Counted from the stretch's first letter, positions 3 through 16,977 are shown. The stretch: DNA of 20,000 bases from an uncultured virus (IMG/VR IMGVR_UViG_3300020447_000004) (IMGVR_UViG_3300020447_000004); one strand, 5' to 3'. Notes: a model not told the origin generated them from the letters alone. Numbers and translations: made by a program.

Positions 3-305
3 GTGACCCTACTTGGAATCGACCATCTGGTGGCTGCCTACACTCCTGAGCTGGAGCGTCATGTCAACGTCACTCAGCACGCACCCTCGGCCGAGTATGT
101 GCACGGAGTAACCACACTCGACCGTGTAGATGACGGGCGGCGCGTGGGCCGTCTGTGGTCGGAGGACGGACTCACCTACAACGTGGTCATGCGCAGGTAC
201 GTCGGTACTGCTGAGATCGGTACGCGATCCTACTACACCCTTCCGGACTACCGGACCGCTGTCATGGTCCTGCTGTCTCGCGCTCATGTGGAAGAAAAAC
301 TCTGA
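3..305 (+). CDS. Hypothetical protein (possibly 5'-truncated by window edge)
   Basis: Open frame ending ...VEEKL-TGA. The stop lies inside module copy 1. Confidence 0.6.
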   Translation: MTLLGIDHLVAAYTPELERHVNVTQHAPSAEYVHGVTTLDRVDDGRRVGRLWSEDGLTYNVVMRRYVGTAEIGTRSYYTLPDYRTAVMVLLSRAHVEEKL

Positions 306-349
306 CTTTTGAGGTGCTCGTGCGTCTCTTACCTGTACCCACTACGGAG
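296..349 (+). promoter_or_regulatory. Conserved promoter/leader module, copy 1 (imperfect palindrome)
   Basis: aaaactctgactttt; TGAC(303-306)-N16-CGTC(323-326); ctgtacccactacggag; ATG at 357. Confidence 0.8.
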
Positions 350-356
350 AAATAAA

Positions 357-698
357 ATGTACCCGCGAGAAGAAAACGTCACCCTGCCCAACGGTATCAC
401 CATCCAGTCTTTCTACGATGATGAGGGGAAGCTGCATCGAGACGGTGGGCCTGCTCAGGTCTCCCGCAGGGCCGATGGGTCACTCATCAGTCTGGCATGG
501 TATCGACACGGGGTCCTGCATCGTGAGGGTGGGGCTGCTAAGCGGACTTACTATCTGGATGGGTCTTGTATCGTGCAGTGGTTTCGGGATGGGAAGCCTC
601 ACCGCGATGATGGACCTGCGTGGGTTCAATACAACTCCGAGGGGGTGAATGAGGTGACGGCTTTGATGAAGGATGGAAAGTGGGTGGAAAGTCTCTGA
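357..698 (+). CDS. LHRxxGPA (MORN-variant-like) repeat protein
   Basis: GGAG before ATG357; three LHRDGGPA/LHREGGAA/PHRDDGPA units; ends VESL-TGA in module 2. Confidence 0.85.
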   Translation: MYPREENVTLPNGITIQSFYDDEGKLHRDGGPAQVSRRADGSLISLAWYRHGVLHREGGAAKRTYYLDGSCIVQWFRDGKPHRDDGPAWVQYNSEGVNEVTALMKDGKWVESL

Positions 699-742
699 CT
701 TTTGGTGCTCTCAAACGTCTACTGGCTGTACCCACTACGGAG
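687..742 (+). promoter_or_regulatory. Conserved promoter/leader module, copy 2
   Basis: AAAGTC-TCT-GACTTT at 688-702; TGAC-N16-CGTC(716); ctgtacccactacggag; ATG749. Confidence 0.85.
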
Positions 743-748
743 CCACAA

Positions 749-1090
749 ATGTCCTCCCTCTTCGCGAACCTCTTCACTACGTCTACTCCCGACACTCGCC
801 CCGCATGGGCGCAGCGTGAAGGTGAGTGGCGCGTCTCTCACCTGGACCGTCTCCAGGCAGGTCTCCGGGCTCTCCCCTCGGTAGACGGCGATGTCTACGC
901 GGAGTACGACGGGTCTACCTCCTTCTGGGTGAGCTACCGCGACAACCGCGACCCTGATATGTGGCAGAACCGTCTCAAGACCCTGGCACATAACCTCAGG
1001 AGTGAGGGCCTCAAGGCCAAGACTGTACGGCGTCGGGGCCGTGTGGTGGGCGTGCGTGTCTCTGACCCCTCCCCGATTGCCTCCCTGTAG
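749..1090 (+). CDS. Hypothetical protein (MSSLFANLF...)
   Basis: Start re-assigned to ATG749, just after the module's GGAG. Confidence 0.75.
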   Translation: MSSLFANLFTTSTPDTRPAWAQREGEWRVSHLDRLQAGLRALPSVDGDVYAEYDGSTSFWVSYRDNRDPDMWQNRLKTLAHNLRSEGLKAKTVRRRGRVVGVRVSDPSPIASL

Positions 1091-1106
1091 AACCTCTGGA
1101 GAGACC

Positions 1107-1538
1107 ATGTCAGCCCCTATCCGGCCCGAAGACGTCCCTACGTGGATGAAGAACCAATTCTCGCTGGAGCGTCGAGTCCAGTGGCTGGACGGCCGTAAAG
1201 GGTCGTGGCGCCCCGGAGAAACGTTTGAACACCATCTACACCTATCCACCCGTCAGTGGACCTCCAAAGGGCACACATACAAACCTCACCTCTATGGGAC
1301 GTTGCAGAGTAGTCTCAATGGGTACCGTGTGCACATCTGGGTCTGGGCCCACTTCTTCGCAGTGCGGCACGGAGGATATAAGGCCGAAATCGTGGTCGAA
1401 ACGAGTGGGATCCGGGGTGTGATGCCGCATCGTCGTCTGGAAGGTCATGTCTTCTTCACGAGTGAGGAAAATGCTCCCAAGAAGCTGAACAAGGTGCTAC
1501 GAGAGATGCGGGAAACCCTTCTAAGTGACGCCACGTAA
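1107..1538 (+). CDS. Hypothetical protein (MSAPIRPEDV...)
   Basis: GGAG upstream of ATG1107; tight packing with neighbours. Confidence 0.7.
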   Translation: MSAPIRPEDVPTWMKNQFSLERRVQWLDGRKGSWRPGETFEHHLHLSTRQWTSKGHTYKPHLYGTLQSSLNGYRVHIWVWAHFFAVRHGGYKAEIVVETSGIRGVMPHRRLEGHVFFTSEENAPKKLNKVLREMRETLLSDAT

Positions 1539-1561
1539 TCCTACCTCCCAGGAGATACCTC

Positions 1562-1993
1562 ATGACCGAACCCAATCGAATCTACCGTACGGATGGTACC
1601 CTCCAGCAGGTGGAATACCGCAATGATGAGGGAGACCTGCACCGTGATGGCGGGCCGGCTCTCACCACGTACCGACAGGATGGGAGCACCCTTCTCTGTG
1701 AGTACTACTATCAGAACGGACTGCTGCACCGTGAGGGTGCCCCCGCTGTCAAGGAGTATTGGTCTTCTGGACAGATCCGATGTATCGACTACTACCAAGA
1801 CGGCCGTATGCATCGCGAAGGCCATCCCGCTCTCACGGAATACCGGAAAGACGGGTCGGTGTGGTATGAGGAATACTGTCTGGAGGGACGAAAGCATCGC
1901 ACGGATGGTCCGGCAACTCGTGAAATCCTGCCGGATGGAACTCCCAGGTACGAAACATACTACCTACACGGAGAAAAAGTAAAAAGTCTCTGA
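1562..1993 (+). CDS. LHRxxGPA repeat protein
   Basis: AGGAG RBS; four 28-aa repeat units; ends HGEKVKSL-TGA in module 3. Confidence 0.9.
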   Translation: MTEPNRIYRTDGTLQQVEYRNDEGDLHRDGGPALTTYRQDGSTLLCEYYYQNGLLHREGAPAVKEYWSSGQIRCIDYYQDGRMHREGHPALTEYRKDGSVWYEEYCLEGRKHRTDGPATREILPDGTPRYETYYLHGEKVKSL

Positions 1994-2035
1994 CTTTTTC
2001 TCCTCCCAAACGTCTACTGACTGTAAAACCCGGAG
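1981..2035 (+). promoter_or_regulatory. Conserved promoter/leader module, copy 3
   Basis: AAAAAGTC-TCT-GACTTTTT at 1981-1999; TGAC-N16-CGTC(2011); GGAG 2032-2035; ATG2043. Confidence 0.85.
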
Positions 2036-2042
2036 AGCTACC

Positions 2043-2240
2043 ATGTTTGCCACCATGACCCTGGACTCTGTGCTCGCTACCCTGTCGCGCCCTACGGACA
2101 CGGTGACAATCGGCTTCAACAACGCTGTCAAGCTGATCGCTGAATCGAACGGCCGCCTGACGTGGCTTGATGCAGGGGACAGTTGGGCGCGGGTGTGCCT
2201 CGCTCGAAAGGGCAGCGAGTACCCTCCTCTGACCTGCTAA
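2043..2240 (+). CDS. Small hypothetical protein
   Basis: First ORF after module 3, with RBS. Confidence 0.7.
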   Translation: MFATMTLDSVLATLSRPTDTVTIGFNNAVKLIAESNGRLTWLDAGDSWARVCLARKGSEYPPLTC

Positions 2241-2252
2241 GGAGAAAACAAC

Positions 2253-2534
2253 ATGAACGTCTACATGCTCCTCGCAAACCGTCCCAGTGCACTCGACTAC
2301 AACCGCTCGGTGACCGCCCTCATCGGCATCTACCAGAACTCCGCTGCCCTCAAGTGTGAGGTCAAGATCCAGACCGCGGTCGATAACCACTACGATGAGT
2401 ATCGTGTCGAGCGAATGTCTTTGGATGACCCGTACCTGGGAGAGCTTTTGCACTCCACGGGACGACGGGTCTGGGATCGGGATAGCGGTATGATCTCGGA
2501 TGACGAATGGGCGGCAATCCTGCAGGAAGGCTGA
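2253..2534 (+). CDS. Hypothetical protein
   Basis: TAAGGAG RBS overlapping the previous stop. Confidence 0.75.
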   Translation: MNVYMLLANRPSALDYNRSVTALIGIYQNSAALKCEVKIQTAVDNHYDEYRVERMSLDDPYLGELLHSTGRRVWDRDSGMISDDEWAAILQEG

Positions 2535-2565
2535 CCACACAGAAACAACAGACTCGGGAGAAAGA

Positions 2566-3018
2566 ATGATCCCCACGCATCGATCTGAAAAAGGTGGAAC
2601 CGTGACACGAAGTGTGCACGGGGGCACCACCAAGGTGGAATACCGCAACGCAGCGGGCAAGCTCCACCGAAGCAACGGGCCTGCGGTCATCTGGTATGAT
2701 GCAGAAGGGTGTGAGGTCTATGCGCAGTACCGAGACGAGGGGGTCATCCATCGTGACGACGGTCCTGCCATCGTACGCACGACTCACCGTGGTGAGTCGA
2801 TGGAGTCCTACTACCGGTATGGTGCATGTCATCGTGACGGAGGCCCCGCCTACATCGCGTATCGACCCGATGGTACCGTACGGACACGCATGTACTACCG
2901 AAACGGCTTCTTCCACCGCGATGATGGTCCTGCTAAGGAGTTTCACTGTGGAGACCCGAACCGCTACGCGTGCCAGTACTATCAGTACGGGGTCCGTCAG
3001 CGCCGGGGAGGCCGGTAG
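2566..3018 (+). CDS. LHRxxGPA repeat protein
   Basis: GGAG before ATG2566; four HRxxGPA units. Confidence 0.85.
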   Translation: MIPTHRSEKGGTVTRSVHGGTTKVEYRNAAGKLHRSNGPAVIWYDAEGCEVYAQYRDEGVIHRDDGPAIVRTTHRGESMESYYRYGACHRDGGPAYIAYRPDGTVRTRMYYRNGFFHRDDGPAKEFHCGDPNRYACQYYQYGVRQRRGGR

Positions 3019-3083
3019 TGACACCCGCGGGATGTCGAAAGGTCTTGTATTGGATGGAAGGTGGTGAATCTACTACCAAACTC

Positions 3084-3704
3084 TCAGGTATGGATAGACC
3101 ACAATCTCCGGAGAGATTCCCCCACCATGACGTCTAAGCTCTCATAGTCCGTGATGATGTCTTCCAGCTCAATGCCCTGACTGCTTTCTGCAATCTGCAC
3201 ACGAAACTCTTTTCGGTACGGATTAATCGTGACCTCTAACCCTGACTCCCCTTTGGAAGCCTCAATCATCGCGATAGTAGCCTTTATCCAAGGTCGACCT
3301 ACCCGAGCACCTGACAGCGACTGCATCATCTCAAAAACGCGCTGAGCTACATCCTTGAGACCCATCGCACGACCACCCTTCGGGGCTCTCTTGGACTGCC
3401 GCTCCGCCGACTTCAGGATGGCAGCAAAGACAGCATCGTATCCCGACAGGTCACCTTGGAGGGCTGACGTCCCCAATCCCTTGATGATACGGTTATAGGT
3501 TCGGGCAAACCCCTTGGGTAAATACCCCTCCCGAATCCCACCCTCTACATAGATGCCCAATTTATTCAACCAAAGGTCTGAGTCCCGAGAGTCGGTCTGG
3601 ACCTTACGCTGAATTTGCTTGACCTCTCGGATATAGCGGGAAAAGTCCAGCTGAGCCACTCGAATCTGACTCGCAATACGATTTAGTCTGTCGGCCAACA
3701 CCAT
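3084..3704 (-). CDS. Hypothetical protein, counter-oriented, N-terminal LNRIASQI
   Basis: 206-aa ORF with GGAGG RBS; upstream motif shared with 4769-5170. Confidence 0.8.
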   Translation of the reverse strand: MVLADRLNRIASQIRVAQLDFSRYIREVKQIQRKVQTDSRDSDLWLNKLGIYVEGGIREGYLPKGFARTYNRIIKGLGTSALQGDLSGYDAVFAAILKSAERQSKRAPKGGRAMGLKDVAQRVFEMMQSLSGARVGRPWIKATIAMIEASKGESGLEVTINPYRKEFRVQIAESSQGIELEDIITDYESLDVMVGESLRRLWSIHT

Positions 3705-3722
3705 ACGTCCTCCATAGATGGA

Positions 3723-3757
3723 TATCTGCTTACTCTGCCTAACAAAAAAAAAAATGG
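3723..3757 (-). promoter_or_regulatory. Second shared upstream motif (CCA-T9-11-GTTAGRCAG..TA..CAGATA), copy 1
   Basis: Near-identical to 5186-5218; both precede minus-strand genes. Confidence 0.5.
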
Positions 3758-3801
3758 CAAAACATTTCCCACCGAGATAGGAACCTCTATAGGGAGCCGA
3801 A

Positions 3802-4161
3802 ATGCAAGAGATATCGCTCGCACATGTCCAGTACTACATCTCGTACTACATCTCGTACAACTACGCGAACATCGCCGTGACTGAACGCTACCCTGCTTAC
3901 GCGGCAAAGAGAGACGAGCCCTCCTATCGCCATTATGTAGACGGTGAAGCATCCATGCTACAGTGGCGAGACCTCTCCGGCAAGACCCATCGAGAAAACG
4001 GACCCGCTGAGGTAGAGTATATCAGAGGAGGTGAGGTCTATGGCATCTCCTACTACCGACACGGTCAGCTCCACCGAGACAGGGGCTACGCTGTCATCAC
4101 CTTCAAAGCCCCCTACCAATGTCGACATATCTACCGCAACGGAGAGCCTCTAAAATGGTGA
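3802..4161 (+). CDS. LHRxxGPA repeat protein (divergent)
   Basis: THRENGPA and LHRDRGYA units; GGGAG RBS. Confidence 0.8.
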   Translation: MQEISLAHVQYYISYYISYNYANIAVTERYPAYAAKRDEPSYRHYVDGEASMLQWRDLSGKTHRENGPAEVEYIRGGEVYGISYYRHGQLHRDRGYAVITFKAPYQCRHIYRNGEPLKW

Positions 4162-4165
4162 CCTC

Positions 4166-4381
4166 GTGAAACATGACTACACCCTCAGGCTGAGGACGAA
4201 CCTCCGATGGGCCCAGATACAGGTCTATCGTGAGGAGTGTCTACACCATGAAGACGGACCCGCCGAGGTGGCCCTGCTCCATGACGGTACTCCGTCTTAC
4301 TTGGGGTACCGTCATGGAGAATATGTGTACATGTCCGAGACAGACGGCGCATATTCTCCATGCATAGATGTGACGTTTTAG
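4166..4381 (+). CDS. Short single-repeat protein, MKHxYTL subfamily (GTG start)
   Basis: KHDYTL N-terminus; LHHEDGPA. Confidence 0.7.
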   Translation: MKHDYTLRLRTNLRWAQIQVYREECLHHEDGPAEVALLHDGTPSYLGYRHGEYVYMSETDGAYSPCIDVTF

Positions 4382-4443
4382 GTCGATTAGACTGGCCCAC
4401 ATCAGCCTAAGATGTTAGAAACTCGCTACACCATAGGAGCACT

Positions 4444-4737
4444 ATGCCACTATCCTGGACCCCCACAGAAGTTGAGCACCCGACCAAAGGAGTCATCATG
4501 GCCCGTCACACACTACACCCGTCTATGGGAGATGTCTACGTCTATCCCATAGACTGGCGTATGGGTATGTGGTGCGCATATGTCCCGCAAGGTGGGAAAC
4601 ACAAAACAGGAGTACAACACTTCCTGGGAGTGTTTGGAGCAGATGGATACGCGCTCAGTGCTCCCGAGATCACACCGGCTCTGTGGGAAGACGCACAGAC
4701 TAAGGCCGAAATGCGGTTAGAGTCCGCACTCTCTTAG
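4444..4737 (+). CDS. Hypothetical protein
   Basis: AGGAG RBS at both ATG4444 and the alternative ATG4498. Confidence 0.65.
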   Translation: MPLSWTPTEVEHPTKGVIMARHTLHPSMGDVYVYPIDWRMGMWCAYVPQGGKHKTGVQHFLGVFGADGYALSAPEITPALWEDAQTKAEMRLESALS

Positions 4738-4768
4738 AGTACACCAAGGAGTGGGTGACACAACACCC

Positions 4769-5170
4769 CTACACCACAGCGTCAATCACCAACTCAGTAA
4801 TGCGCTTTGCAATCTTAGCCGCCCCTAAACGAGATGGGTCCAACCGCTCCTTTACCCGTGAACCGGAGACGATACCAAAAATGTCCAGCTGAGTCCGATG
4901 CGCCCCCCCAAACTCTACCATGAGGTCTACATCCGTACCACTCAACTGTAAGCCTGAGATGGTAGTATCAACGTATAAAGCTCCCGACGAAAGTGGGTCA
5001 CCTTTCCCACCATGCCTCTGGTACATCGACTCTACATAGTGCTCAATGAACGGAACCAACCGCTCCATATAGGCCGTCTGAGCCTTATCCAACTCGCGAG
5101 TCCACTCAGTAGCCCCCGCGACCTTCGATAGGTCTGCCGCAATCTTCTGTAGCTGTAGAGAAATGTCCAT
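4769..5170 (-). CDS. Hypothetical protein, counter-oriented, N-terminal LQKIAADL
   Basis: AGGAG RBS (5176-5180) before ATG5170. Confidence 0.75.
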   Translation of the reverse strand: MDISLQLQKIAADLSKVAGATEWTRELDKAQTAYMERLVPFIEHYVESMYQRHGGKGDPLSSGALYVDTTISGLQLSGTDVDLMVEFGGAHRTQLDIFGIVSGSRVKERLDPSRLGAAKIAKRITELVIDAVV

Positions 5171-5185
5171 GGAAACTCCTAATAC

Positions 5186-5218
5186 TATCTGTGTAGACTG
5201 TCTAACAAAAAAAAATGG
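5186..5218 (-). promoter_or_regulatory. Second shared upstream motif, copy 2
   Basis: tatctg..ta..ctgtctaacaaaaaaaaatgg on + strand, matching 3723-3757. Confidence 0.5.
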
Positions 5219-5300
5219 ACACCGCACGAACACCATGATAGAGGGCCTCTCGCACATCGACATAGGTATCTCCACAGCATCGCGCAGAAATGGTGACCCC

Positions 5301-5549
5301 ATGAAACACGTCTACACACTACAGGTCCTCTCTAACAAAAAGACAGGGCTCTCCCTCATCAGGTACTACCAAAATGGCCAAGTCCACCATGATGATACCT
5401 CACCTGCCATGCTCACATGGCACCCCAGGTGGGGGTACACTCATGCGGAATACTTCAAGGACGGGCAAATCATCCGATCCGTCCACAATATAGAATACCG
5501 TACCCACCTCATGGACACAATTCATAGAGCCCTCATAGGTTCACCATGA
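5301..5549 (+). CDS. Single-repeat protein, MKHxYTL subfamily
   Basis: MKHVYTL...YYQNGQVHHDDTSPA; ATGA overlap with next gene. Confidence 0.75.
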   Translation: MKHVYTLQVLSNKKTGLSLIRYYQNGQVHHDDTSPAMLTWHPRWGYTHAEYFKDGQIIRSVHNIEYRTHLMDTIHRALIGSP

Positions 5550-5911: not shown

Positions 5912-5915
5912 CTCA

Positions 5916-6113: not shown

Positions 6114-6169
6114 CTCCCCCCTCGATACCGTGTTAGGGATATGGGTATGTGATAGATCCTGGAGGCGAT

Positions 6170-8580: not shown

Positions 8581-8770
8581 TCACGGGATGTCTTTTTATG
8601 TCACCAAATGTCATTTCGGGTTGCGGGTCTGGTCGAGACGTGGTAGCCTATTTTCGCTACTCTGTAAGGGGAGCATAGAGTGCAGACGCAAAAATGCCCG
8701 TATGAAACAGGGCTCATACGGGCTAACGGGTATAGCTGTTGTGTGCTATTGCGTGATGTGGCATGACCTG

Positions 8771-9765: not shown

Positions 9766-9788
9766 GAGTCTCCCTGGGTTTGTGGGAG

Positions 9789-9817: not shown

Positions 9818-9835
9818 GGTCCGTCGGGTAAGGTG

Positions 9836-10132: not shown

Positions 10133-10163
10133 TTTCGTTTCTCCGCTTTCGAGGGCCGAGGGC

Positions 10164-10421: not shown

Positions 10422-10428
10422 CTTGAGT

Positions 10429-10484
10429 CTCCGTAGCGGTTACAGGTAAGAGACGCATGAGAGACCCAAAAGTCAGAGACTTTC
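10429..10484 (-). promoter_or_regulatory. Conserved promoter/leader module, copy 4
   Basis: Palindrome 10469-10483; N16 spacer 10456-10471; ctgtaaccgctacggag. Confidence 0.85.
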
Positions 10485-10655
10485 TACACTTTCTCCGTGT
10501 AGGTAGTAGTACTCATGCCGCACAGTCCCGTCTCTTCGATACCCGATGACAGCAGGACCGGAGGCCCTGTGTAGACCTCCGTGGTGGTAGTAGTACTCAC
10601 ACCACACCGCTCCGTCAGATCGATAGGTGATTTTTCGGCATTGGGTCAAGACCAT
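10473..10655 (-). CDS. Short LHRxxGPA protein ending VESL in module 4
   Basis: AAGGAG RBS; paralog of 13482-13664. Confidence 0.8.
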   Translation of the reverse strand: MVLTQCRKITYRSDGAVWCEYYYHHGGLHRASGPAVIGYRRDGTVRHEYYYLHGESVESL

Positions 10656-10697
10656 TTAGCTCCTTTAAACAGAGTCCAGCCCAAAGCTGCTCAGTAC

Positions 10698-11042
10698 CTA
10701 CACAGACCCGTCATCATAGCGCAGCTCCTTGGCGGACCCGTCTTCACGAGTATCACCCGGGAAGATCTTCACGAGGGGACGGTGCGACCGGATCCAACGC
10801 CCCTCCTCCCAGTACTCCATATGAGTGACGTACCCCTCATCTCCGTACCAGATGACAGCGGGACCTTCCTCACGGTGGCGCATGCCGTGCTGGTAGTACA
10901 CCACACGCCAGACGCGGCCTGTCTTCTGGCCCCGCTCAATGTAGGCGGGACCCTCGTCACGGTGCATCCGCCCCTCTGCGTCACGGTAGATGGTAGAGGG
11001 GTTGAACTTTTCCGTGGTCGGATTGTAGAGAGGCTTGGGCAT
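10698..11042 (-). CDS. LHRxxGPA repeat protein with distinct C-terminal tail; paralog of 15131-15488
   Basis: GGAG RBS before ATG11042. In-frame upstream mini-unit from ATG11120. The TAG stop aligns with TGG in the paralog. Confidence 0.75.
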   Translation of the reverse strand: MPKPLYNPTTEKFNPSTIYRDAEGRMHRDEGPAYIERGQKTGRVWRVVYYQHGMRHREEGPAVIWYGDEGYVTHMEYWEEGRWIRSHRPLVKIFPGDTREDGSAKELRYDDGSV

Positions 11043-11154
11043 TTTTGTTTCTCCGTGTAGGTAGTAGTGCTCTCGCTCCACAGTCCTGTCAAGGTAATAG
11101 CTCTTCACCGACTCAGGCATGTCAGGCTTCTGTAGCAAGGTCCCTAAGACTTTC

Positions 11155-11183
11155 GCCTCAGGGGCCTTAGGTGCCCCTCAGGC
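11155..11183 (-). terminator. Hairpin at end of 11178-11549
   Basis: gcctcaggggc-N7-gcccctcaggc (one mismatch); no U-tract. Confidence 0.35.
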
Positions 11184-11549: not shown

Positions 11550-11556
11550 TTCGTTT

Positions 11557-11612
11557 CTCCGTAGCGGTTACATGATAGAGACGTTTGGAGAGACCAAAAG
11601 TCAGAGACTTTC
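11557..11612 (-). promoter_or_regulatory. Conserved promoter/leader module, copy 5
   Basis: Palindrome 11597-11611; N16 spacer 11584-11599. Confidence 0.85.
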
Positions 11613-11699
11613 TACCTTTTTTCCGTGCAGGTAGTCCTCCTCACGCACCACCGTCCCTCCCTTTCAATATCAGAGTCTTCGGGTGTGTTCGCCCTTCAC
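11601..11699 (-). pseudogene. Remnant of repeat-protein minigene
   Basis: Manual translation VKGEHTRRL*Y*KGGTVVREEDYLHGKKVESL*. Confidence 0.7.
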
Positions 11700-11705
11700 G
11701 TGCCG

Positions 11706-12038
11706 CTATCCCTTCTCCACGTCCCTCAAGAGACGCTTCGTGGACCCCAACTCCCCCAACACCTGATCCAGCTCGTACTTTGGGGGACGGCGACACAGCT
11801 GTAGCTCCTCCAACTGCTTCTCCAGGTAGGCAATCCGCCACCGCAATGCCTTAGGGTGGTAGGATCCCCACACGTCCACCAGACCGTTCGGGACCGTACC
11901 GTGTCCCCAGTACTTCTCACTGACCTCTCCGGGCCGGTCCAGATCCACACGGAAGGTAAGAGGTTGGCTATTGAACCACGATGACGACCGGGAGTCGTAC
12001 ATAGGTGGGGGCGGGTCAGTGTAGTTACGGTACCACAT
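11706..12038 (-). CDS. Hypothetical protein with C-terminal coiled coil (MWYRNYTD...)
   Basis: GGTGA RBS before ATG12038, adjacent to the upstream stop. Confidence 0.65.
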   Translation of the reverse strand: MWYRNYTDPPPPMYDSRSSSWFNSQPLTFRVDLDRPGEVSEKYWGHGTVPNGLVDVWGSYHPKALRWRIAYLEKQLEELQLCRRPPKYELDQVLGELGSTKRLLRDVEKG

Positions 12039-12042
12039 TTTG

Positions 12043-12843
12043 TCACCGAATGACAGAAGGAGAGTAGTAGACTGCGTGGACGTTATTCCGGGAAGGGCCG
12101 CCACAGGGAGCCTGTTGGAAGTCTCGCAGGTCATCGGCCCACTGACGTGCATCCGCCACGACAGCCCGAAACTGGTCCAGGATCCGGTCCTTCTCGTCAT
12201 CCGGCAACGTACTCTCCGCTACAGCCGTCACCGCATTACCCAACTTCTCGGCTGCGGTTCGGTTGAGCATACGCAGCCGCTGAAGGCTCTTTGCCACACT
12301 CACGCGCTCCTGAGCCTTACGACGCTTCTCCTGCTCAGCCTTGTACTCCTTGAGACGTACCAGCTCCTTCTTGAGACGCTCCTCGGCCTTCTGTAGTTCG
12401 GCCAGACGGGTCTTCACCATCTCCAGACACTTCTCCTTGTTCTGTTGGATGAGGGCCTGTAGAACGATCTGTGGCACCTCTCCGTAGACACTACTGGGCT
12501 TGATGCCGTCTCGCTGAGCATGGGTCAGCTCCATATACCGACATGTGATATGGTCTTCGATGGAGGTCTGTCCGTTCAAGATGGACTGAGCAATGGAGAT
12601 AGCCTCCCCTACCTCAGGTAGGGTTTCTTCTGGATTGAGCTTCCACCAAAGCCCCTTCGGAGTGAGGGTGTGCGCAGGCTCCAACACCGCCTCTCCCGAA
12701 AACTCCAGGTCATCTCGGGTCAGTGCGACCTTCCCCTTACGTGCCTTACGTTTGTTGTAGGCACGGATCAGCGAAGTCACGACGGAGTCTGGCATGCTCC
12801 GAATGTCTGCATCGGTGAGAGTGATGTCAACCTGCTTGCTCAT
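12043..12843 (-). CDS. Coiled-coil hypothetical protein; paralog of 14257-15063
   Basis: Shared blocks THAxRxGIKPSSVY and RLRMLNRTAAEKL. Confidence 0.85.
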   Translation of the reverse strand: MSKQVDITLTDADIRSMPDSVVTSLIRAYNKRKARKGKVALTRDDLEFSGEAVLEPAHTLTPKGLWWKLNPEETLPEVGEAISIAQSILNGQTSIEDHITCRYMELTHAQRDGIKPSSVYGEVPQIVLQALIQQNKEKCLEMVKTRLAELQKAEERLKKELVRLKEYKAEQEKRRKAQERVSVAKSLQRLRMLNRTAAEKLGNAVTAVAESTLPDDEKDRILDQFRAVVADARQWADDLRDFQQAPCGGPSRNNVHAVYYSPSVIR

Positions 12844-12906
12844 GAATATCTCCGGGAAAGGGTTTCCAGGGGGCTATCCTACCCACCCCCCCACTGTCCA
12901 GTACTT

Positions 12907-13428
12907 TCAGGAGTAGGACCATTCCTGAGTCGGGATGACCTTCGTAAGATCCTGCCCCAGCTCCTCGTCAATGACCTGAGAAACGAGACGGTAGAGGGTC
13001 TGTGCAGCCTCAGGGGAGTCGCAGCTGATGCGGAGGTAGCGCCGCTCCTGGGCACTGTCACGGGAGACCAGCATGACCGTGGAGCCGCTCTGGCCCATGG
13101 TAACAGCCTCCAGGACATCCTCCCGAAGGAGGTCCTCATGTTCCTGAATCAGCTGGTAGTAGCTGTTCTCCCAGGCAGCCTTGACGATGTCACGTGCCTC
13201 GTCCCAGCACTGCTCATCCATGTCATCCACAAAGCCCATACGGGCCATCTCGTAGCCCTCGGACATGCAGTAGAGATCATGGTTTTCGCACACGTCACTC
13301 CAGGGAGTCACAGGACTCACCTCAGCCAGTAGAGCGCTCGACAGGTTTTCAACGTAGCGACGGACCAGAGCCTCACGGTTGGCACGGTCAGACATGGTAG
13401 AGGAGAGGTAGTTCTTGAAGTAAGACAC
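12907..13428 (-). CDS. Acidic hypothetical protein (GTG start)
   Basis: AAAGGTGA RBS at the end of module 6. Confidence 0.75.
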   Translation of the reverse strand: MSYFKNYLSSTMSDRANREALVRRYVENLSSALLAEVSPVTPWSDVCENHDLYCMSEGYEMARMGFVDDMDEQCWDEARDIVKAAWENSYYQLIQEHEDLLREDVLEAVTMGQSGSTVMLVSRDSAQERRYLRISCDSPEAAQTLYRLVSQVIDEELGQDLTKVIPTQEWSYS

Positions 13429-13435
13429 GGTGTCA

Positions 13436-13493
13436 CCTTTCGTAGTGGTTACTGTCAGTAGACGCACGAGAGACCTAAAAGTCAGAGACTTTC
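13436..13493 (-). promoter_or_regulatory. Conserved promoter/leader module, copy 6
   Basis: Palindrome 13478-13492; N16 spacer 13465-13480. Confidence 0.85.
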
Positions 13494-13664
13494 TTCACTT
13501 TCTCCGTTTAGGTAGTAGTCATCACCCTCCACAGTCCCGTCAGGATGATACCAGATGACAGCAGGGCCTCCGGCCCTGTGCCTCTCTCCGTTTAGGTAGT
13601 AGTACTCATACAAGACAGACTTGTCGGACCGATACGTAAGTCTTCGGGTGTAGGTCGGAGTCAC
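13482..13664 (-). CDS. Short LHRxxGPA protein ending EESL in module 6
   Basis: GTGA overlap with the upstream gene. Confidence 0.8.
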   Translation of the reverse strand: MTPTYTRRLTYRSDKSVLYEYYYLNGERHRAGGPAVIWYHPDGTVEGDDYYLNGESEESL

Positions 13665-14101
13665 AGAGCCTCGCCCCGCAGGTAGCTCGCCTCCCAGAGC
13701 ACCTCACCATCTTCTGCATACTCGATGTAGGCAGGCCCCTTCGAGCGATGGAGCTGATCCAGACAGTAGTATTCCACCTTCAGGGGCTGACCACTGGGGT
13801 AGCGCACGATGTAAGCAGGGCCGTCGATCCGATGCTTCTCACCCGCCAGATAGTAGATCTCCTTACGGGGGCGCCCCTGTTCATCATAGTGAATGACCGC
13901 AGGCTTACCCCACCGATGGAGCATACTCCGGTTGTACCACTTGTGGTAGATGACCGACCCATCCTCCCGGAACTTGACCACCGCAGGGAGGTCCCCGGAC
14001 CCTTCCAGCTCACCGTCATCGTTGAAGCGACGGATGGCCTGGAGGGCTCCGCTGGGGTAGAAGGCGTAGAGCGTGTTGCCGAATTCGAGGGAGGAGGGCA
14101 T
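13661..14101 (-). CDS. LHRxxGPA repeat protein
   Basis: Four repeat units; follows module 7. Confidence 0.85.
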   Translation of the reverse strand: MPSSLEFGNTLYAFYPSGALQAIRRFNDDGELEGSGDLPAVVKFREDGSVIYHKWYNRSMLHRWGKPAVIHYDEQGRPRKEIYYLAGEKHRIDGPAYIVRYPSGQPLKVEYYCLDQLHRSKGPAYIEYAEDGEVLWEASYLRGEAL

Positions 14102-14108
14102 GTCATGT

Positions 14109-14164
14109 CTCCGTAGTGGGTACAGGTAAGAGACGCACGAGGGACCTGAAAGTCAGAGACTTTC
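14109..14164 (-). promoter_or_regulatory. Conserved promoter/leader module, copy 7
   Basis: Palindrome 14149-14163; N16 spacer 14136-14151; 3' part identical to copy 1 (cgtgcgtctcttacctgtacccactacggaga). Confidence 0.85.
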
Positions 14165-14245
14165 TACCCTTTTTCCGTTCAGGTAGTACTCCTCCCACTC
14201 TACAGACACGTCGGGTTGCTACTCGATTCTTCGGGTGTAGAGTGA
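14153..14245 (-). pseudogene. Remnant of repeat-protein minigene
   Basis: Manual translation SLYTRRIE*QPDVSVEWEEYYLNGKRVESL*. Confidence 0.7.
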
Positions 14246-14256
14246 CGCCGTAAAAA

Positions 14257-15063
14257 CTACGTAGAACCAACTACGGTCCACATCGGCCCCCTACTCCGAT
14301 ATCCTCCACACCCCCCTCGGTGGAAATCCTGTAGGTCACGCTCCCACTGACGTGCCTCACCCACCACGGCCTCGAAATTCGCCAGAATCTCGTCCTTCTC
14401 TGCGCCAGGGAGCGTGCTCCGTGCCACGCTCAACACCGCCTCCTCCAGCTTCTCGGCTGCTGTCCGATTGAGCATTCGCAGACGACCCATGCCCCGTGCA
14501 GGAGCCTCTCGCTTGGAAATCAACTCGCGTGCCTCCTGCTCCACCTTCTGTTCCCGAAGCTTCACACACAGAGTCTTCAACTCCTCCACCTTGGTCAGAA
14601 GGGTCGCGCGCTGAGTCCTCACCATCTTCATGCACGCCTTCCGGTTCTATTCCACCAACTGACTCTGGACCGACTTCGGAAGGCTAACATACACACTGCT
14701 CGGCTTAATACCCTCCCGTGGAGCATGCGTCAAGCCCATCTGACTGACATACAGATGTTCAAACAGGTCCGCATCTCCCCCCAACACTTGCCGTGCCGTC
14801 TCTGATGCCTCCTCGACCTGAGAGAGCTTACGGATAGCCGTGTCCAGACACCACGTATAGCTGTACACCATCAACGGACCTCCCAGACTCTCCCCTACCT
14901 GAATCGACACCTCACCCAAAAACTCCATGTCACCCTTCGCCAGAGGGGTCTTCTTCCGTCGAGCCTTCCGTTTGTTGAAAGCCCGTAGCAAGGGTCCGGT
15001 GACCGAATCCGGCATGTCCCGGATCTGTTCATTGGTGAGCTTGAGGGTAATCTGCTGTGTCAT
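14257..15063 (-). pseudogene. Coiled-coil protein paralog interrupted by in-frame TAG (14647-14649)
   Basis: The two track ORFs are in the same frame; the TAG aligns with CAG (Gln) in 12043-12843. Confidence 0.8.
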
Positions 15064-15109
15064 TTGACCTCCGTGTATTGTGGTGGGACATATCACCTCA
15101 GTCCCTTCA

Positions 15110-15151
15110 GTGCCACTACGGTTTGGGGACCTACCCAAACCGTAGTGGCAC
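15110..15151. repeat. Perfect 18-bp inverted repeat, 6-nt loop
   Basis: gtgccactacggtttggg-gaccta-cccaaaccgtagtggcac. Confidence 0.95.
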
Positions 15152-15488
15152 CCACTCCTCCCCATCCGCGTAGCGCAGTCCCGTCGCAGCCCCATCCTCC
15201 CGAGTCTCACGGGGGTACAGCTTCACAATGGGACGGTGCGACCGGACCCAACGCCCCTCCTCCCAGTACTCCATATTACCCCTCAGCCCCATACCAGATG
15301 ATAGCGGGACCTTCCTCGCGATGTCGCTGCCCGTGACGGTAGTACTCCTCACGCCAAACTCGGTCGGTCTTCCGATCCCGCTCAATGAAGGCGGGACCTT
15401 CCTCACGATGGACCCGTCCCTCAGAATCACGGTAGATGACATGAGGGTAGGGCTCGTTTGTAAGCGGATTGTTCATCGGTTCAGACAT
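15131..15488 (-). pseudogene. Frameshifted paralog of 10698-11042
   Basis: 8-nt deletion near 15276 (gaggggta[cgtcactc]atatggag) splits WYGAEG from MEYWEEGRW. Confidence 0.8.
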
Positions 15489-15495
15489 TTTCATC

Positions 15496-15566
15496 CTCCA
15501 TTGGACAGGTAAGAGACGTTGGGACAGGTAAGATGCGCACGGGACTCCCAAAAGTCAGAGACTTTC
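15496..15566 (-). promoter_or_regulatory. Conserved module, copy 8 (rearranged)
   Basis: Palindrome 15551-15565; -10 position reads CGCA; ggacaggtaaga duplicated at 15503 and 15522. Confidence 0.7.
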
Positions 15567-15983
15567 TACCTTTTTCCCGTTTAGGTAGTAGGTCTCACTG
15601 GAGACAGACCCGTCGGATCGGTAGAGGGTGTAAGCAGGGCCTTCGGCCCTGTGACTCTTACCCTTTAGGTAGTAGGACTCACTCTCCACCGTCCCGTCTT
15701 TTCGATACCAGATGGAAGCCGGACCTCCGGTCCGGTGCCTCGGCCCGTTCTGGTAGTAGGTCTCACGCTCCACAGTCCCGTCTTTTCGATACCAGATGGA
15801 AGCCGGACCTCCGGCCCTGTGTTTGAGACCGTTTTGGTAGTAGGTCTCACAGAAGACCGGCCCGTCTCCGTAATACATGATGACAGCCGGGCCTTCGGCC
15901 CGATGCAGCTGCCCGTCCTCGTTGAGGTACTCCTCACGCAGGAGGATTCCGTCAGGGCTGTAGACCTTCACAGGCTCAGACAT
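15555..15983 (-). CDS. LHRxxGPA repeat protein (MSEPVKVY...) ending VESL
   Basis: Four units; two near-identical 84-nt units (40-nt exact match at 15691 and 15775). Confidence 0.9.
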   Translation of the reverse strand: MSEPVKVYSPDGILLREEYLNEDGQLHRAEGPAVIMYYGDGPVFCETYYQNGLKHRAGGPASIWYRKDGTVERETYYQNGPRHRTGGPASIWYRKDGTVESESYYLKGKSHRAEGPAYTLYRSDGSVSSETYYLNGKKVESL

Positions 15984-15989
15984 TTCGCA

Positions 15990-16045
15990 CTCCGTAGCGG
16001 TTACAGTCAGTAGACGCACCAGAGACCCGAAAGTCAGAGATCTTC
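15990..16045 (-). promoter_or_regulatory. Conserved promoter/leader module, copy 9 (imperfect palindrome)
   Basis: gaagatctctgactttc; N16 spacer 16017-16032; ctgtaaccgctacggag. Confidence 0.85.
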
Positions 16046-16056
16046 GGGAGAAAATC

Positions 16057-16371
16057 TCACGCGGTAGCGAGCTTGCAGAGGGTGGCACATGCGCGACGAG
16101 CGGTACGCTTGTTCGCAGACTTGCCCATGAGATGGTAGTACCAGACCGCACCAACCCCACGCAGGCAGTACTTCACGTGATGGTAGAGACCATCCACCGT
16201 TAACTTCCCGCGCGTACTCAGGTGAGCCATCACGTTGTCACGGTAGATCAGCACCTTCGTCCCGTTGGGCATCACGAGTTCGGTCGCGGTCCCGTAGGAG
16301 TCAATCTCGACAGGAGTCACCGAGAGGGCACGGGCAGTCAGGTCGTCAGCAAGCTCAGATCGAACGCTCAT
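16057..16371 (-). CDS. Hypothetical protein, single gene between modules 10 and 9
   Basis: RBS in module 10. Confidence 0.8.
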   Translation of the reverse strand: MSVRSELADDLTARALSVTPVEIDSYGTATELVMPNGTKVLIYRDNVMAHLSTRGKLTVDGLYHHVKYCLRGVGAVWYYHLMGKSANKRTARRACATLCKLATA

Positions 16372-16378
16372 GTTGTGT

Positions 16379-16430
16379 CTCCGTAGTGGTTACAGTCCGT
16401 AGACGCTCCAGGGGAGCAAAAGTCAGAGAG
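16379..16430 (-). promoter_or_regulatory. Conserved promoter/leader module, copy 10 (half palindrome)
   Basis: tctctgactttt; N16 spacer 16406-16421; ctgtaaccactacggag. Confidence 0.85.
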
Positions 16431-16491
16431 ATCTTCTTAATTGGGGTGGCGTAGTGCAGTGAAACCCTTTATGGGGTGTATAGGAGGTAAG

Positions 16492-16920
16492 ATGATTGCA
16501 TACAGCCCAGTCACCGAACGATTTCAGATGGATGTAGGTCAGGTGGTGATGCAACTGCATCAAGAGGGCCGTGTTACCCGTCCACAATCATACCGCCCTC
16601 TGTCATATTCGTTGGTGCTTAGGCTGCAAAAGGGTACAACACCATGTCAGGTTTTGTTTAGCCTCACCCCCTCAGGGGGATGTAAACTGCGCGCCATGAC
16701 ACCTCACGGAAGCGACTGGGAAGCGGAGGCTCCCTCTCCTGACATGGAGACCCTTTCCCGTCTTGTGGATCGTATGTATCTCTGGGTAGATATGGAGTTT
16801 GAACGTCGGCGTAAGCGTGCGCAGGAGTACGAAAACGAGATGGAAAGGTTGCAGCGCGAGATGGCCCGATTGAGGGGGGAAATGCACCGTCTTCGGGGAC
16901 CGGATACCTATGTTTCTTAG
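16492..16920 (+). CDS. Hypothetical protein with C-terminal coiled coil
   Basis: AGGAGGT RBS before ATG16492. Confidence 0.75.
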   Translation: MIAYSPVTERFQMDVGQVVMQLHQEGRVTRPQSYRPLSYSLVLRLQKGTTPCQVLFSLTPSGGCKLRAMTPHGSDWEAEAPSPDMETLSRLVDRMYLWVDMEFERRRKRAQEYENEMERLQREMARLRGEMHRLRGPDTYVS

Positions 16921-16921
16921 C

Positions 16922-16977
16922 AAAAGTCTCTGACTTTCGGGCCTGTCGTGCGTCTACTACCTGTAACCGCTACAGAG
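16922..16977 (+). promoter_or_regulatory. Conserved promoter/leader module, copy 11
   Basis: Palindrome 16923-16937; TGAC-N16-CGTC(16951); ctgtaaccgctacagag; ATG16986. Confidence 0.85.

What the first reader, a model, noticed from the sequence alone, without database searches (positions are those of the whole stretch)
296..16977. Eleven-copy palindrome + promoter + leader module that partitions the region into gene cassettes
Seen: a ~55-nt element occurs at 296, 687, 1981 and 16922 (+) and at 10429, 11557, 13436, 14109, 15496, 15990 and 16379 (-). Consensus: (G/A)AAAGTCTCTGACTTT-N13-CGTCT(A/C)(C/T)-N3-CTGTA(A/C)C(C)(A/G)CTACGGAG-N6-8-start. Every copy sits immediately before a start codon, and the downstream genes are mostly unrelated to each other. 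Known: T4-type phage PeSL cassettes and mycobacteriophage start-associated sequences are repeated regulatory elements, and PeSLs are linked to modular gene shuffling. Inference: this is a portable expression and recombination module that builds a variable early-gene cassette array, integron-like in logic but with a promoter per cassette.
Basis: partly seen in the sequence, partly recalled or inferred. Interest (0 to 1): 0.9.

Follow-up and report, generated by a model that had tools for sequence, protein, structure and literature searches.

The report
Repeated phage promoter-leader module
A huge uncultured marine phage places the same roughly 60-base "stop, promoter, leader, ribosome site" unit in front of dozens of small gene groups; it looks like a promoter read by an alternative sigma factor, not an integron-like recombination system.

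Summary
There are exactly 11 copies at the stated coordinates, each ending at a start codon, and no shuffle of the window came close to that number. The same module occurs 58 times in 122.7 kb of held metagenome sequence (27 in the window's own 56-kb contig, 31 in 12 other contigs). It is absent from IMG/VR, INPHARED phages and bacterial genomes.

Anatomy: A-tract, invariant CTGACTTT(T), a fixed 13-nt gap, invariant CGTCT, TGTA(A/C)CC, GGAG, then about 7 nt to ATG. The layout TGAC-T-tract-N16-CGTC matches ECF-type sigma promoters, not sigma-70 promoters.

The "palindrome" is not a maintained hairpin. Its right arm is invariant and its left arm varies without compensation (perfect in 21 of 58; RNA dG -2.6 kcal/mol).

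The downstream genes are not all unrelated. About 19 of 46 ORFs are MORN-like paralogues, and several of these end inside the module at its TGA.

Integron-like logic is not supported. PeSL-like recombination could not be tested because no relatives were found. One paralogue does show a promoter core deleted between short direct repeats.

Verdict: a new variant of a known kind (phage repeated promoter cassettes), of moderate interest.

The parts
293..356 (+). Module copy 1, left arm degenerate (AAAAAC). Its TGA at 303-305 ends ORF 3-305. Drives MORN-like gene 357-698.
686..748 (+). Module copy 2. Its TGA at 696-698 ends gene 357-698 (...WVESL*). Drives ORFan 749-1090.
1981..2042 (+). Module copy 3. 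Its TGA ends MORN-like gene 1562-1993 (...YYLHGEKVKSL*). Drives 2043-2240 and the following + strand genes.
16921..16985 (+). Module copy 4. Upstream gene 16492-16920 stops just before it. Drives 16986-17342, 17349-17588 and 17601-18113.
10422..10485 (-). Module copy. Its TGA ends small MORN gene 10473-10655. Drives 10164-10421 and downstream minus-strand genes as far as the terminator.
11550..11613 (-). Module copy preceded by a decayed MORN tail (no full gene). Drives 11178-11549.
13429..13494 (-). Module copy with an atypical ribosome site (GAAAGG) and a GTG start. Its TGA ends small MORN gene 13482-13664. Drives 12907-13428.
14102..14165 (-). Module copy preceded by a decayed MORN tail (14153-14256). 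Drives MORN-like gene 13661-14101.
15489..15567 (-). Aberrant module. The -10/start region is tandemly duplicated: the copy at the correct spacing reads CGCAT, and the intact CGTCT sits 19 nt too far away. It precedes a frameshifted paralogue (15276-15488 plus 15131-15442) of gene 10698-11138.
15984..16046 (-). Module copy, left arm degenerate (AAGATC). Drives MORN-like gene 15555-15983.
16372..16435 (-). Module copy, left arm degenerate (GATCTC). First of the leftward array. Drives 16057-16371.
11040..11138 (-). 5' part of gene 10698-11138. A MORN start and tail are joined in frame to the leader end and ATG of a paralogue of 15276-15488. The promoter core is missing between the direct repeats ACGGAGAAA.
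   Evidence: alignment
8696..8723 (-). Strong intrinsic-terminator-like hairpin (11-bp stem followed by a T run) at the end of the leftward array.

Best explanation
Each copy is a compact intergenic 'gene end, promoter, leader, ribosome site' unit of a huge marine phage.

Layout, with the C of CTGACTTT as position 0:
- A-rich tract at -9 to -5.
- TCTCTGACTTTT, a -35-like block.
- A semi-conserved gap.
- CGTCT at 21-25, a -10-like block.
- TGTA(A/C)CC at 32-38, the predicted transcription start region.
- GGAG at 44-47.
- ATG at about +55.

The TGA inside the -35-like block serves as the stop codon of the upstream gene in about a third of copies.

The layout TGAC + T-tract, 16 nt, CGTC is that of ECF-type (group 4) sigma promoters. 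The most likely reader is therefore RNA polymerase carrying an alternative sigma, either phage-encoded or a hijacked host ECF sigma, rather than the host's primary sigma.

Each unit starts a short transcript covering 1-4 small genes. In this window many of those genes are MORN-like paralogues. There is no terminator between units, so transcription accumulates until the hairpin at 8696-8723.

Shown: the repeat, its fixed geometry, its strict coupling to start codons, the absence of a conserved hairpin, and the absence of a sigma-70 pattern. Inferred: promoter activity, the class of sigma, and the start site.
For: The repeat is real and widespread:
- 11 copies in the window and 58 in 122.7 kb of held sequence.
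- CTGACTTT and CGTCT are invariant or nearly so in 53 aligned copies, while the gap between them is much less conserved.
- Spacing is fixed in 52 of 58 copies.
- The start codon lies at +55 in 31 of 58 and at +53 to +57 in 48 of 58. The script found an ORF in 54 of 58. Two of the 4 misses are window copies whose ORFs one search found with a looser ribosome-site pattern.

It is not a sigma-70 promoter:
- No sigma-70-like site lies at any module. The window has 5 such sites against 11.7 +/- 4.0 expected.
- The position that would be the -11 A is an invariant C.

It resembles ECF promoters:
- Passages read in PMC5758882 give the ECF features as an 'AAC' -35 core, a -35-proximal T-tract (tGAAACnTTTt), a 'CGT(C/A)' -10 and spacers of 14-17 bp.
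- A passage in PMC10651043 gives the AlgU consensus as GAACTT-N16/17-TCtgA.
- The module reads TGACTT-N16-TCT(A/C)(C/T).

It is not an RNA structure:
- The alifold consensus energy is about 0.
- The 52 distinct copies show no compensatory changes.

One anecdote links module and gene: the only module with a disrupted -10 spacing (15565) precedes a frameshifted gene.

The setting is a phage:
- Other parts of the contigs encode DNA methyltransferases, a Thg1-like enzyme, RNA ligases, a dCMP-deaminase-like protein, and NAD-salvage enzymes (NAD synthetase and, more weakly, nicotinamide phosphoribosyltransferase). These have PHROG matches.
- The best Thg1 matches are phages of 316-635 kb.
- The window's 266-aa protein is on record on a 391,752-bp contig.
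Against: - There are no transcript data. The runs found are DNA and are held as contigs.
- The -35 core is GAC in 53 of 53 copies, not the AAC typical of ECF promoters.
- No sigma-factor domain was found among the ORFs scanned: 61 from the window and 150 from other loci. Only about 123 kb of a genome of at least 392 kb was available, so this is weak evidence either way.
- If these are immediate-early genes, dependence on an alternative sigma would need a packaged or very early sigma.
- The left arm is conserved well above background (A 45, A 42, A 45, T 44 and C 45 of 53). A role as a half-site for a dimeric regulator cannot be excluded.
Confidence: 0.65

Rival explanations
1. PeSL-like recombination cassettes. 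The modules are promoters, but their main evolutionary role is as portable homology blocks. Homologous recombination between them inserts, deletes and shuffles gene cassettes, possibly through mini-circles.
For: - The region is dense in ORFans and paralogues.
- 'Small MORN gene + module' units are duplicated, and their homology ends within about 10 nt of the downstream start codon. Examples are 10432-10638 vs 13441-13647, and 10427-10514 vs 14107-14194.
- Gene 10698-11138 lacks the promoter core exactly between the two ACGGAGAAA repeats that flank it in its paralogue.
- One copy in another contig has an internal deletion (listing).
- PeSLs have the same order of parts: stop codon, promoter, ribosome site, start (PMC2839356 section 13).
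Against: - No related genome is available, so breakpoints could not be mapped.
- The junctions of the larger paralogous genes carry no module: 12043-12843 vs 14257-15063, and 10698-11138 vs 15131-15488.
- The 'joints' seen in the laid contigs are short cross-mappings of other module copies, with sides of 30-58 nt.
- Conservation of the module is explained well enough by promoter and leader function.
Confidence: 0.3
2. An operator plus promoter. The 15-bp palindrome AAAGTC-TCT-GACTTT is the binding site of a dimeric phage regulator that switches the whole gene class on or off.
For: The left arm is conserved above background even where it is non-coding. It overlaps the -35-like block, which is the usual place for a repressor or class II activator.
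Against: - The palindrome is perfect in only 21 of 58 copies.
- The central pair is G:C in 22 of the 52 distinct copies and mismatched in 30.
- The right arm is invariant while the left arm drifts, so the two halves are under different constraints.
Confidence: 0.15
3. An integron-like site-specific recombination array, with the palindromes acting as attC-like hairpins cut by a dedicated recombinase.
For: Repeated palindrome-containing elements separate small, often unrelated genes.
Against: - There is no conserved hairpin.
- Every unit has its own promoter-like motif.
- Copies lie on both strands, forming convergent and divergent blocks.
- No integrase or recombinase domain appeared among the 211 ORFs scanned.
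- Units hold 1-4 genes, not single promoterless cassettes.
Confidence: 0.03
4. An RNA-level element (a processing site, a translational operator or a hairpin promoter of the N4 type) rather than a bipartite double-stranded promoter.
For: - The leader CC(A/G)CTACGGAGAAAC is conserved beyond what pairing with 16S rRNA needs. This recalls the SAS of Cluster K mycobacteriophages (PMC3203893 passages).
- The 6-bp stem with a 3-nt loop recalls N4 virion-polymerase promoters (recalled, not checked in any call).
Against: - No consensus fold and no covariation.
- The best hairpin has dG -2.6 kcal/mol, and the common AAAATC variant does not fold.
- The most invariant blocks lie upstream of any plausible transcript start and are kept at a fixed spacing, as for sigma-type recognition.
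Confidence: 0.07

Closest known systems
PeSLs (promoter-early stem-loops) of T4-type phages RB49 and phi1 (Arbiol et al. 2010, PMC2839356; outline and section 13 read)
   Same: - About 50 repeated intergenic cassettes per genome.
- Made of the upstream gene's stop codon in an A/T-rich stretch, a -35/-10 promoter, a Shine-Dalgarno sequence and a start codon.
- Concentrated before ORFans in plastic regions.
   Different: - PeSL promoters match the sigma-70 consensus and carry a stable G/C-rich stem-loop that terminates transcription.
- This module has no sigma-70 pattern and no stable or conserved stem-loop.
- Recombination between copies and mini-circles were demonstrated for PeSLs and could not be tested here.
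ECF (group 4) sigma-factor promoters, e.g. B. subtilis sigma W/X/M/V and Pseudomonas/Azotobacter AlgU (PMC5758882 and PMC10651043, passages read)
   Same: - A short -35 core ending in AC, followed by a T-tract.
- A 16-nt spacer.
- A CGTC / TCT -10 block.
- Close adherence to consensus across many copies.
   Different: - The -35 core is GAC, not AAC.
- The setting is a phage with at least 58 copies, not a small stress regulon.
- No cognate sigma has been identified.
Start-associated sequences (SAS/ESAS) of Cluster K mycobacteriophages (Pope et al. 2011, PMC3203893, passages read)
   Same: - A conserved asymmetric motif that includes the ribosome-binding core.
- It lies a few nt before the start codons of non-structural genes of different families.
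- The upstream gene's stop sometimes lies inside the motif.
- An upstream inverted repeat is present in a subset.
   Different: - SAS is a 13-bp motif at the ribosome site with no promoter assigned.
- ESAS has 17-bp inverted repeats.
- In this module the strongest conservation lies 30-55 nt upstream of the start, in two promoter-like blocks.
Integron attC/cassette arrays
   Same: Repeats punctuate an array of small, diverse genes.
   Different: - No integrase was found.
- There is no conserved single-strand hairpin.
- Each unit carries a promoter.
- Copies lie on both strands.

Membership tests
PeSL cassettes | Promoter matching the host sigma-70 consensus (-35 TTGACA, -10 TATAAT) | tested here: not met
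   The sigma-70 scan finds no site at any module. The -10-equivalent block is CGTCT, with an invariant C where the -11 A would be.
PeSL cassettes | Stable stem-loop acting as a terminator or attenuator | tested here: not met
   The best hairpin has dG -2.6 kcal/mol. The palindrome is perfect in 21 of 58 copies, with no compensatory changes.
PeSL cassettes | Order of parts: upstream stop codon, promoter, Shine-Dalgarno, start codon. Located before ORFans. | tested here: met
   With a coding-score filter, 47 of 58 copies have a scorable upstream ORF. Its stop lies inside the module in 18 copies and 4-37 nt upstream of position 0 in the other 29. GGAG and the start codon sit at a fixed distance. 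Most downstream genes have no family match.
PeSL cassettes | Indels and replacements between related genomes map to the cassettes; mini-circles form | not testable with these tools
   No relatives were found. The runs are held only as contigs. One internal promoter-core deletion was seen.
ECF-type sigma promoter | -35 core with a conserved AAC | tested here: not met
   The core is GAC in 53 of 53 aligned copies. The criterion comes from PMC5758882.
ECF-type sigma promoter | T-tract just downstream of the -35 core | tested here: met
   T at positions 5-7 in 53 of 53 copies and at position 8 in 44 of 53. The criterion comes from PMC5758882.
ECF-type sigma promoter | -10 element CGT(C/A), with a spacer of 14-17 bp | tested here: met
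   CGTC at positions 21-24 in 52-53 of 53 copies. There are 16 nt between TGAC and CGTC, and the spacing is fixed in 52 of 58.
ECF-type sigma promoter | A cognate group-4 sigma factor in the phage or host | not testable with these tools
   None was found among the 211 ORFs scanned with Pfam.
Integron | IntI-type integrase next to the array | tested here: inconclusive
   No integrase domain was found in the scanned ORFs of the window or held loci. Most of the genome was not seen.
Integron | attC sites whose structure, not sequence, is conserved; promoterless cassettes | tested here: not met
   Here the sequence is conserved and the structure is not. Each unit carries a promoter-like motif.
SAS/ESAS (Cluster K mycobacteriophages) | A 13-bp GGGATAGGAGCCC-type motif 3-7 bp before the start codon | tested here: not met
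   The leader consensus is CC(A/G)CTACGGAGAAAC. Only the GGAG core is shared (motif from PMC3203893).
MORN_2 (PF07661) repeat proteins, for the neighbouring genes | Pfam MORN_2 match above the gathering score | tested here: inconclusive
   Window proteins score 17.2-18.8 bits against a cut-off of 29.6. Paralogues in contig CESG01031619.1 score 35.0 and 31.5 bits, and are 45% identical to window gene 1562-1993 (E 3e-27).

The most novel reading that the evidence does not exclude
A marine phage of about 390 kb or more expresses a large part of its accessory genome from well over 50 copies of one ECF-sigma-type promoter that has a built-in stop codon. That number is likely above 100 genome-wide. 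This would mean that a phage-encoded ECF-like sigma is the master switch of a whole phage gene class. Alternatively, the switch could be the host's envelope-stress sigma, triggered by the infection itself. The same modules, flanked in MORN genes by a 9-13-nt repeat of their own leader, would then be the breakpoints at which genes are fused, silenced and shuffled.
Probability: 0.25. Interest if true: 0.65.

Novelty: new variant of a known kind. Interest (0 to 1): 0.42.

Why it matters
Repeated promoter cassettes show how large phages organise and time the expression of their many unknown genes. If this motif is read by an ECF-type sigma, it would be a clean, very large regulon (at least 58 near-consensus sites) for a sigma class not usually linked to bulk phage transcription. 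It would also give a simple sequence handle for finding all genes of that temporal class in this lineage. The module further gives exact start codons for dozens of ORFans. Finally, it documents how promoter loss fuses or silences MORN-like paralogues.

Tried and rejected
**Searches for relatives**
- Megablast of the whole window against INPHARED phages gave no match.
- tblastn of the 266-aa protein against phages gave no match.
- The pattern scan of IMG/VR gave 0 hits.
- The pattern scan of bacterial and archaeal genomes gave 2 single hits, which is chance level.
- In the metagenome scan, the 2 JGI contigs (L011, L016) were pattern matches only. nhmmer found no module in them.
- The search for related loci in IMG/VR with three non-repeat proteins gave nothing, or one marginal 35% match (L032). 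I did not follow that up.
- The search for homologous proteins with the 266-aa protein returned only the protein itself.
- All-against-all comparison of the held contigs found no syntenic relatives: DNA, ORFs of 70 aa or more with MORN-like pairs excluded.

**Population evidence for recombination**
- Four marine-metagenome DNA runs hold the stretch, from two samples and two studies. Both samples may be the source.
- The runs are held only as Logan contigs. These break at the modules.
- The listed 'joints' and loose ends are short cross-mappings of other module copies.
- This gives no verdict on recombination.

**Other checks**
- Rfam found no family and ARAGORN found no tRNA in the window.
- Whole-genome tools could not be used because no genome or record is held.
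- Earlier scan notes by place and by sequence returned nothing.

**Readings considered and rejected**
- Intrinsic terminator: the stem is too weak.
- Sigma-70 promoter, with CTGACT-N17-TCTACT as 4/6 + 4/6: the -11 A is missing and that position is an invariant C.
- Bacteroidetes-type TTTG/TAnnTTTG promoter: the TA is poorly conserved.
- Sigma-54, sigma-28 and T4 late or middle motifs: no resemblance (judged from recalled consensus sequences).

**A correction to my own count**
My first count of upstream ORFs ending at the module's TGA was 30 of 58. That count included spurious alternative-frame ORFs. With a coding-score filter it is 18 of 58.

Full report

Yes. The 15-mer AAAGTCTCTGACTTT with up to 3 mismatches occurs at all eleven stated places. 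It gives 19 matches, because a palindrome is counted on both strands. The expected number is 0.43, and none of 200 dinucleotide-preserving shuffles reached 19.

Extracting the copies shows a shared element of about 60 nt that ends at a start codon every time. A profile built from the 11 copies recovers exactly those 11 (E 1.4e-23 to 1.8e-15) and nothing else in the 20 kb, apart from a reverse-strand echo at E 0.04.

**2. Where does it come from?**

The window equals positions 36373-56231 of a 56,231-bp metagenome contig, plus 141 further bases.

The window has no megablast match in INPHARED phages. The module pattern has no hit in IMG/VR and only two single, chance-level hits in 185,579 bacterial and archaeal genomes.

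In the metagenome collection the pattern hits the window's own contig many times and 12 other contigs of the same assembly set. Two JGI contigs matched the pattern but not the profile, so they are chance hits.

Profile search of all held sequence (122.7 kb in 18 pieces) gives 58 copies. Of these, 27 are in the window's contig and 31 are in the 12 other contigs.

Outside the window these contigs encode several DNA methyltransferases and a Thg1-like guanylyltransferase. They also encode T4-type RNA ligases, a dCMP-deaminase-like protein, a radical-SAM protein, RNA-repair-type HAD and nucleotidyltransferase proteins, and NAD synthetase. A weaker PHROG match is to nicotinamide phosphoribosyltransferase. 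Many of these have PHROG matches.

The Thg1-like protein's best matches are uncultured phages of 485-635 kb and jumbo phages of 316-368 kb, at 37-44% identity. The window's longest protein (266 aa) has no relative among 5.8 billion clusters other than itself. It is on record on six contigs, the longest of 391,752 bp. Four marine-metagenome DNA runs hold the stretch, from two samples that may be the source.

I conclude that this is part of a huge, uncultured marine phage. No virion gene was seen in the held pieces, so the assignment rests on gene content.

**3. Anatomy of the module**

I aligned 53 of the 58 copies without gaps, taking the C of CTGACTTT as position 0. The profile is:
- A-rich at -9 to -5.
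- T and C at -3 and -2 (44 and 45 of 53).
- T at -1 (52 of 53).
- CTGACTTT at 0-7, where every position is 51-53 of 53.
- T at 8 (44 of 53) and GG at 9-10.
- A pyrimidine-rich, semi-conserved stretch at 11-20.
- CGTCT at 21-25 (51-53 of 53).
- TGTA at 32-35, (A/C)CC at 36-38 and GGAG at 44-47.
- An A-rich spacer, then the start codon.

The distance between the two invariant blocks is the same in 52 of 58 copies. The start codon lies at +55 in 31 of 58 and at +53 to +57 in 48 of 58. The script found a start and an ORF in 54 of 58. Two of the four misses are window copies with atypical ribosome sites, whose ORFs were found.

Two invariant blocks at a fixed distance, with a less constrained spacer, are the signature of a sigma-type bipartite promoter. 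What follows is a leader so short (about 20-26 nt) that almost every base is taken by the start region, the ribosome site or the spacer.

**4. What kind of promoter?**

It is not sigma-70-like. A consensus scan finds only 5 sigma-70-like sites in the window against 11.7 +/- 4.0 expected, and none lies at a module. If CTGACT-N17-TCTACT is read as -35/-10, the key -11 A is replaced by an invariant C.

The layout is instead TGAC, T-tract, 16 nt, CGTC. Read another way, it is TGACTT-N16-TCT(A/C)(C/T).

Passages I read in Gaballa et al. (PMC5758882) describe ECF promoters as follows: an 'AAC' -35 core, a -35-proximal T-tract (tGAAACnTTTt), a 'CGT(C/A)' -10 and spacers of 14-17 bp. A passage in PMC10651043 gives the AlgU consensus as GAACTT-N16/17-TCtgA.

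Three of these four features are met. The -35 core is GAC rather than AAC, so I call the module ECF-like in the way it works but do not file it as a proven member.

No sigma gene was found among the 211 ORFs scanned with Pfam. Most of the genome could not be reached.

**5. The palindrome**

Eight of the 11 window copies have a perfect 6+3+6 palindrome, but only 21 of all 58 do. The remaining copies have 5 pairs (11), 4 pairs (16), or 3 or fewer (10).

The right arm GACTTT is invariant because it is the -35-like block. The left arm drifts, and the middle pair is G:C in 22 of the 52 distinct copies and mismatched in 30. There is not one compensatory change.

As RNA the perfect version folds at only -2.6 kcal/mol, and the common AAAATC variant does not fold. 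RNAalifold finds no consensus structure for the module or for the leader.

The palindrome is therefore not a terminator, an attC-like hairpin or an N4-type hairpin promoter. The left arm is still conserved above background, so an upstream A-tract contact or a regulator half-site remains possible.

**6. The module holds the upstream gene's stop**

The invariant TGA of CTGACTTT is the stop codon of the best-scoring upstream ORF in 18 of 58 copies, using a coding-score filter. An unfiltered count gave 30 of 58, but that included spurious frames. In a further 29 copies the stop lies 4-37 nt upstream of position 0, often directly against the left arm.

Unrelated upstream proteins therefore share C-termini of the form ...E(S/N/T/K)L*, imposed by the module. 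Intergenic DNA is essentially just the module.

**7. The neighbouring genes**

My provisional gene map has 46 ORFs. About 19 of them form one family with repeats of the type YYxNGxxHRxxGPA. Window members match Pfam MORN_2 only below the cut-off (17-19 bits against 29.6). Paralogues in another contig pass it (35.0 and 31.5 bits) and are 45% identical to a window member.

Four of the 11 genes directly behind a module are of this family. The other seven are ORFans with no Pfam or PHROG match.

In six window copies (1983, 10483, 11611, 13492, 14163, 15565) the 25-45 nt upstream of the module are also conserved. They encode the family's C-terminal repeat (...YYL(H/N)GE.VESL*). At 11611 and 14163 only a decayed tail is left. 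Across all 58 copies such tails are a minority, about 9 by inspection of the listing. The module therefore does not depend on the family.

**8. Transcription map**

- Modules at 295, 688 and 1983 point rightwards into a block that runs to about 7160.
- Seven modules from 16433 down to 10483 point leftwards. That array ends at a strong terminator-like hairpin at 8696-8723.
- The module at 16923 points rightwards again.
- Units hold 1-4 genes.
- No module lies in 2100-10400 or beyond 17000.

**9. Is it a recombination module?**

The runs that hold the sequence are kept as contigs, which break at the modules. The 'joints' are 30-58-nt cross-mappings of other copies. This gives no verdict.

Internal evidence is mixed.

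In favour:
- Units of 'small MORN gene + module' are duplicated, with homology ending within about 10 nt of the downstream start codon.
- Gene 10698-11138 is an in-frame join of a MORN start and tail to the leader end and ATG of a paralogue of 15276-15488. The promoter core is missing exactly between two ACGGAGAAA repeats, one in the MORN tail and one in the leader.
- Module 15565 carries a 19-nt tandem duplication that puts CGTCT at the wrong distance, and it precedes a frameshifted gene.
- One copy in another contig has lost the -10 block (listing).

Against:
- The larger paralogous genes (12043-12843 vs 14257-15063, 41-54% identity) sit at junctions without modules and in a different gene order.
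- There is no recombinase domain, no conserved hairpin and no promoterless cassettes, so the integron analogy fails.

My reading is that the modules are promoters first. Because they are numerous 60-nt repeats, they are also occasional substrates for ordinary homologous or microhomology recombination.

**10. Comparison with what is known**

PeSLs of T4-type phages are the closest in architecture. They share the order stop codon, promoter, ribosome site, start, and sit before ORFans in plastic regions. They are defined, however, by sigma-70-consensus promoters and strong stem-loop terminators, and neither is present here (PMC2839356 section 13).

ECF promoters are the closest in motif geometry.

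SAS/ESAS of Cluster K mycobacteriophages share the conserved ribosome-site context, and sometimes an upstream stop inside the motif. They are much shorter and have no promoter assigned.

Earlier notes of this scan describe MORN-gene arrays with promoter modules in a T4-like phage, and PeSL-like arrays in huge rumen phages. They concern other genomes and I did not test them here.

**11. Verdict**

- The repeat is real and highly non-random.
- It is best explained as a repeated promoter-leader unit of a huge marine phage, probably read by an alternative, ECF-like sigma.
- The palindrome is largely a by-product of an A-tract facing the TTT of the -35-like block.
- The integron-like reading is rejected. 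PeSL-like shuffling is possible but unproven.
- It is a new variant of a known kind. Interest is moderate.

Noticed in passing
window 3739-3752 and 5202-5215 (+): A second repeated intergenic motif, CTAACAAAAAAAAA(A)TGG, has 2 copies where 0 are expected by chance. Each lies in the divergent gap upstream of one of the two minus-strand genes (3084-3704 and 4769-5170) that interrupt the rightward block. It may be another promoter class or a bidirectional signal.
   Followed up: partly
window 7800-8760 and 18480-20000: Two non-coding regions of about 1-1.5 kb are full of direct repeats. They include 59-nt units spaced 130 nt apart, 81-nt units spaced 156 nt apart, and GGTCAA-containing 33-mers. 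At the very end is a 100%-identical 77-nt repeat (19815-19891 and 19924-20000), just where the public contig stops. They look like iterons or an origin, or like an assembly end. Rfam finds nothing there.
   Followed up: partly
window 4166-6466 (+): A tandem run of small MORN-like genes whose products begin MKH(I/V)YTL. They are joined by a conserved stop/start junction (AAATGGTGACCnC(A/G)TGAAACA) and have no promoter module between them. This sub-family appears to be co-transcribed and translationally coupled.
   Followed up: no
window 15131-15488 (-) vs 10698-11138 (-): 15276-15488 plus 15131-15442 together make a frameshifted copy of gene 10698-11138. Identity is 66% over residues 33-102 and 67% over residues 102-144. 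It is probably a pseudogene.
   Followed up: yes
window 12043-12843 (-) vs 14257-14631 and 14647-15063 (-): The 266-aa coiled-coil-like ORFan has a paralogue that is split into two ORFs (54% and 41% identity). It has no relative in 5.8 billion protein clusters other than itself.
   Followed up: partly
whole window, runs X1-X4: Word depth of the laid contigs in run X1 differs along the window, from about 15-22 over 1-10,000 to about 32-35 over 10,000-19,000. This could reflect strain heterogeneity or cross-mapping of repeats. I did not interpret it.
   Followed up: no
L013, L014, L015, L021, L022, L031 (same and sister contigs): There are unusually many DNA methyltransferase genes: N6_N4_Mtase, D12 class, an Eco57I C-terminal domain, and DUF4942 with a methyltransferase domain. 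RNA-repair-type genes are also present: a Thg1-like enzyme, Rnl1-like and Rnl2-like ligases, RlaP, and the HAD_SAK_2 domain. Several of these sit in module-driven units.
   Followed up: partly
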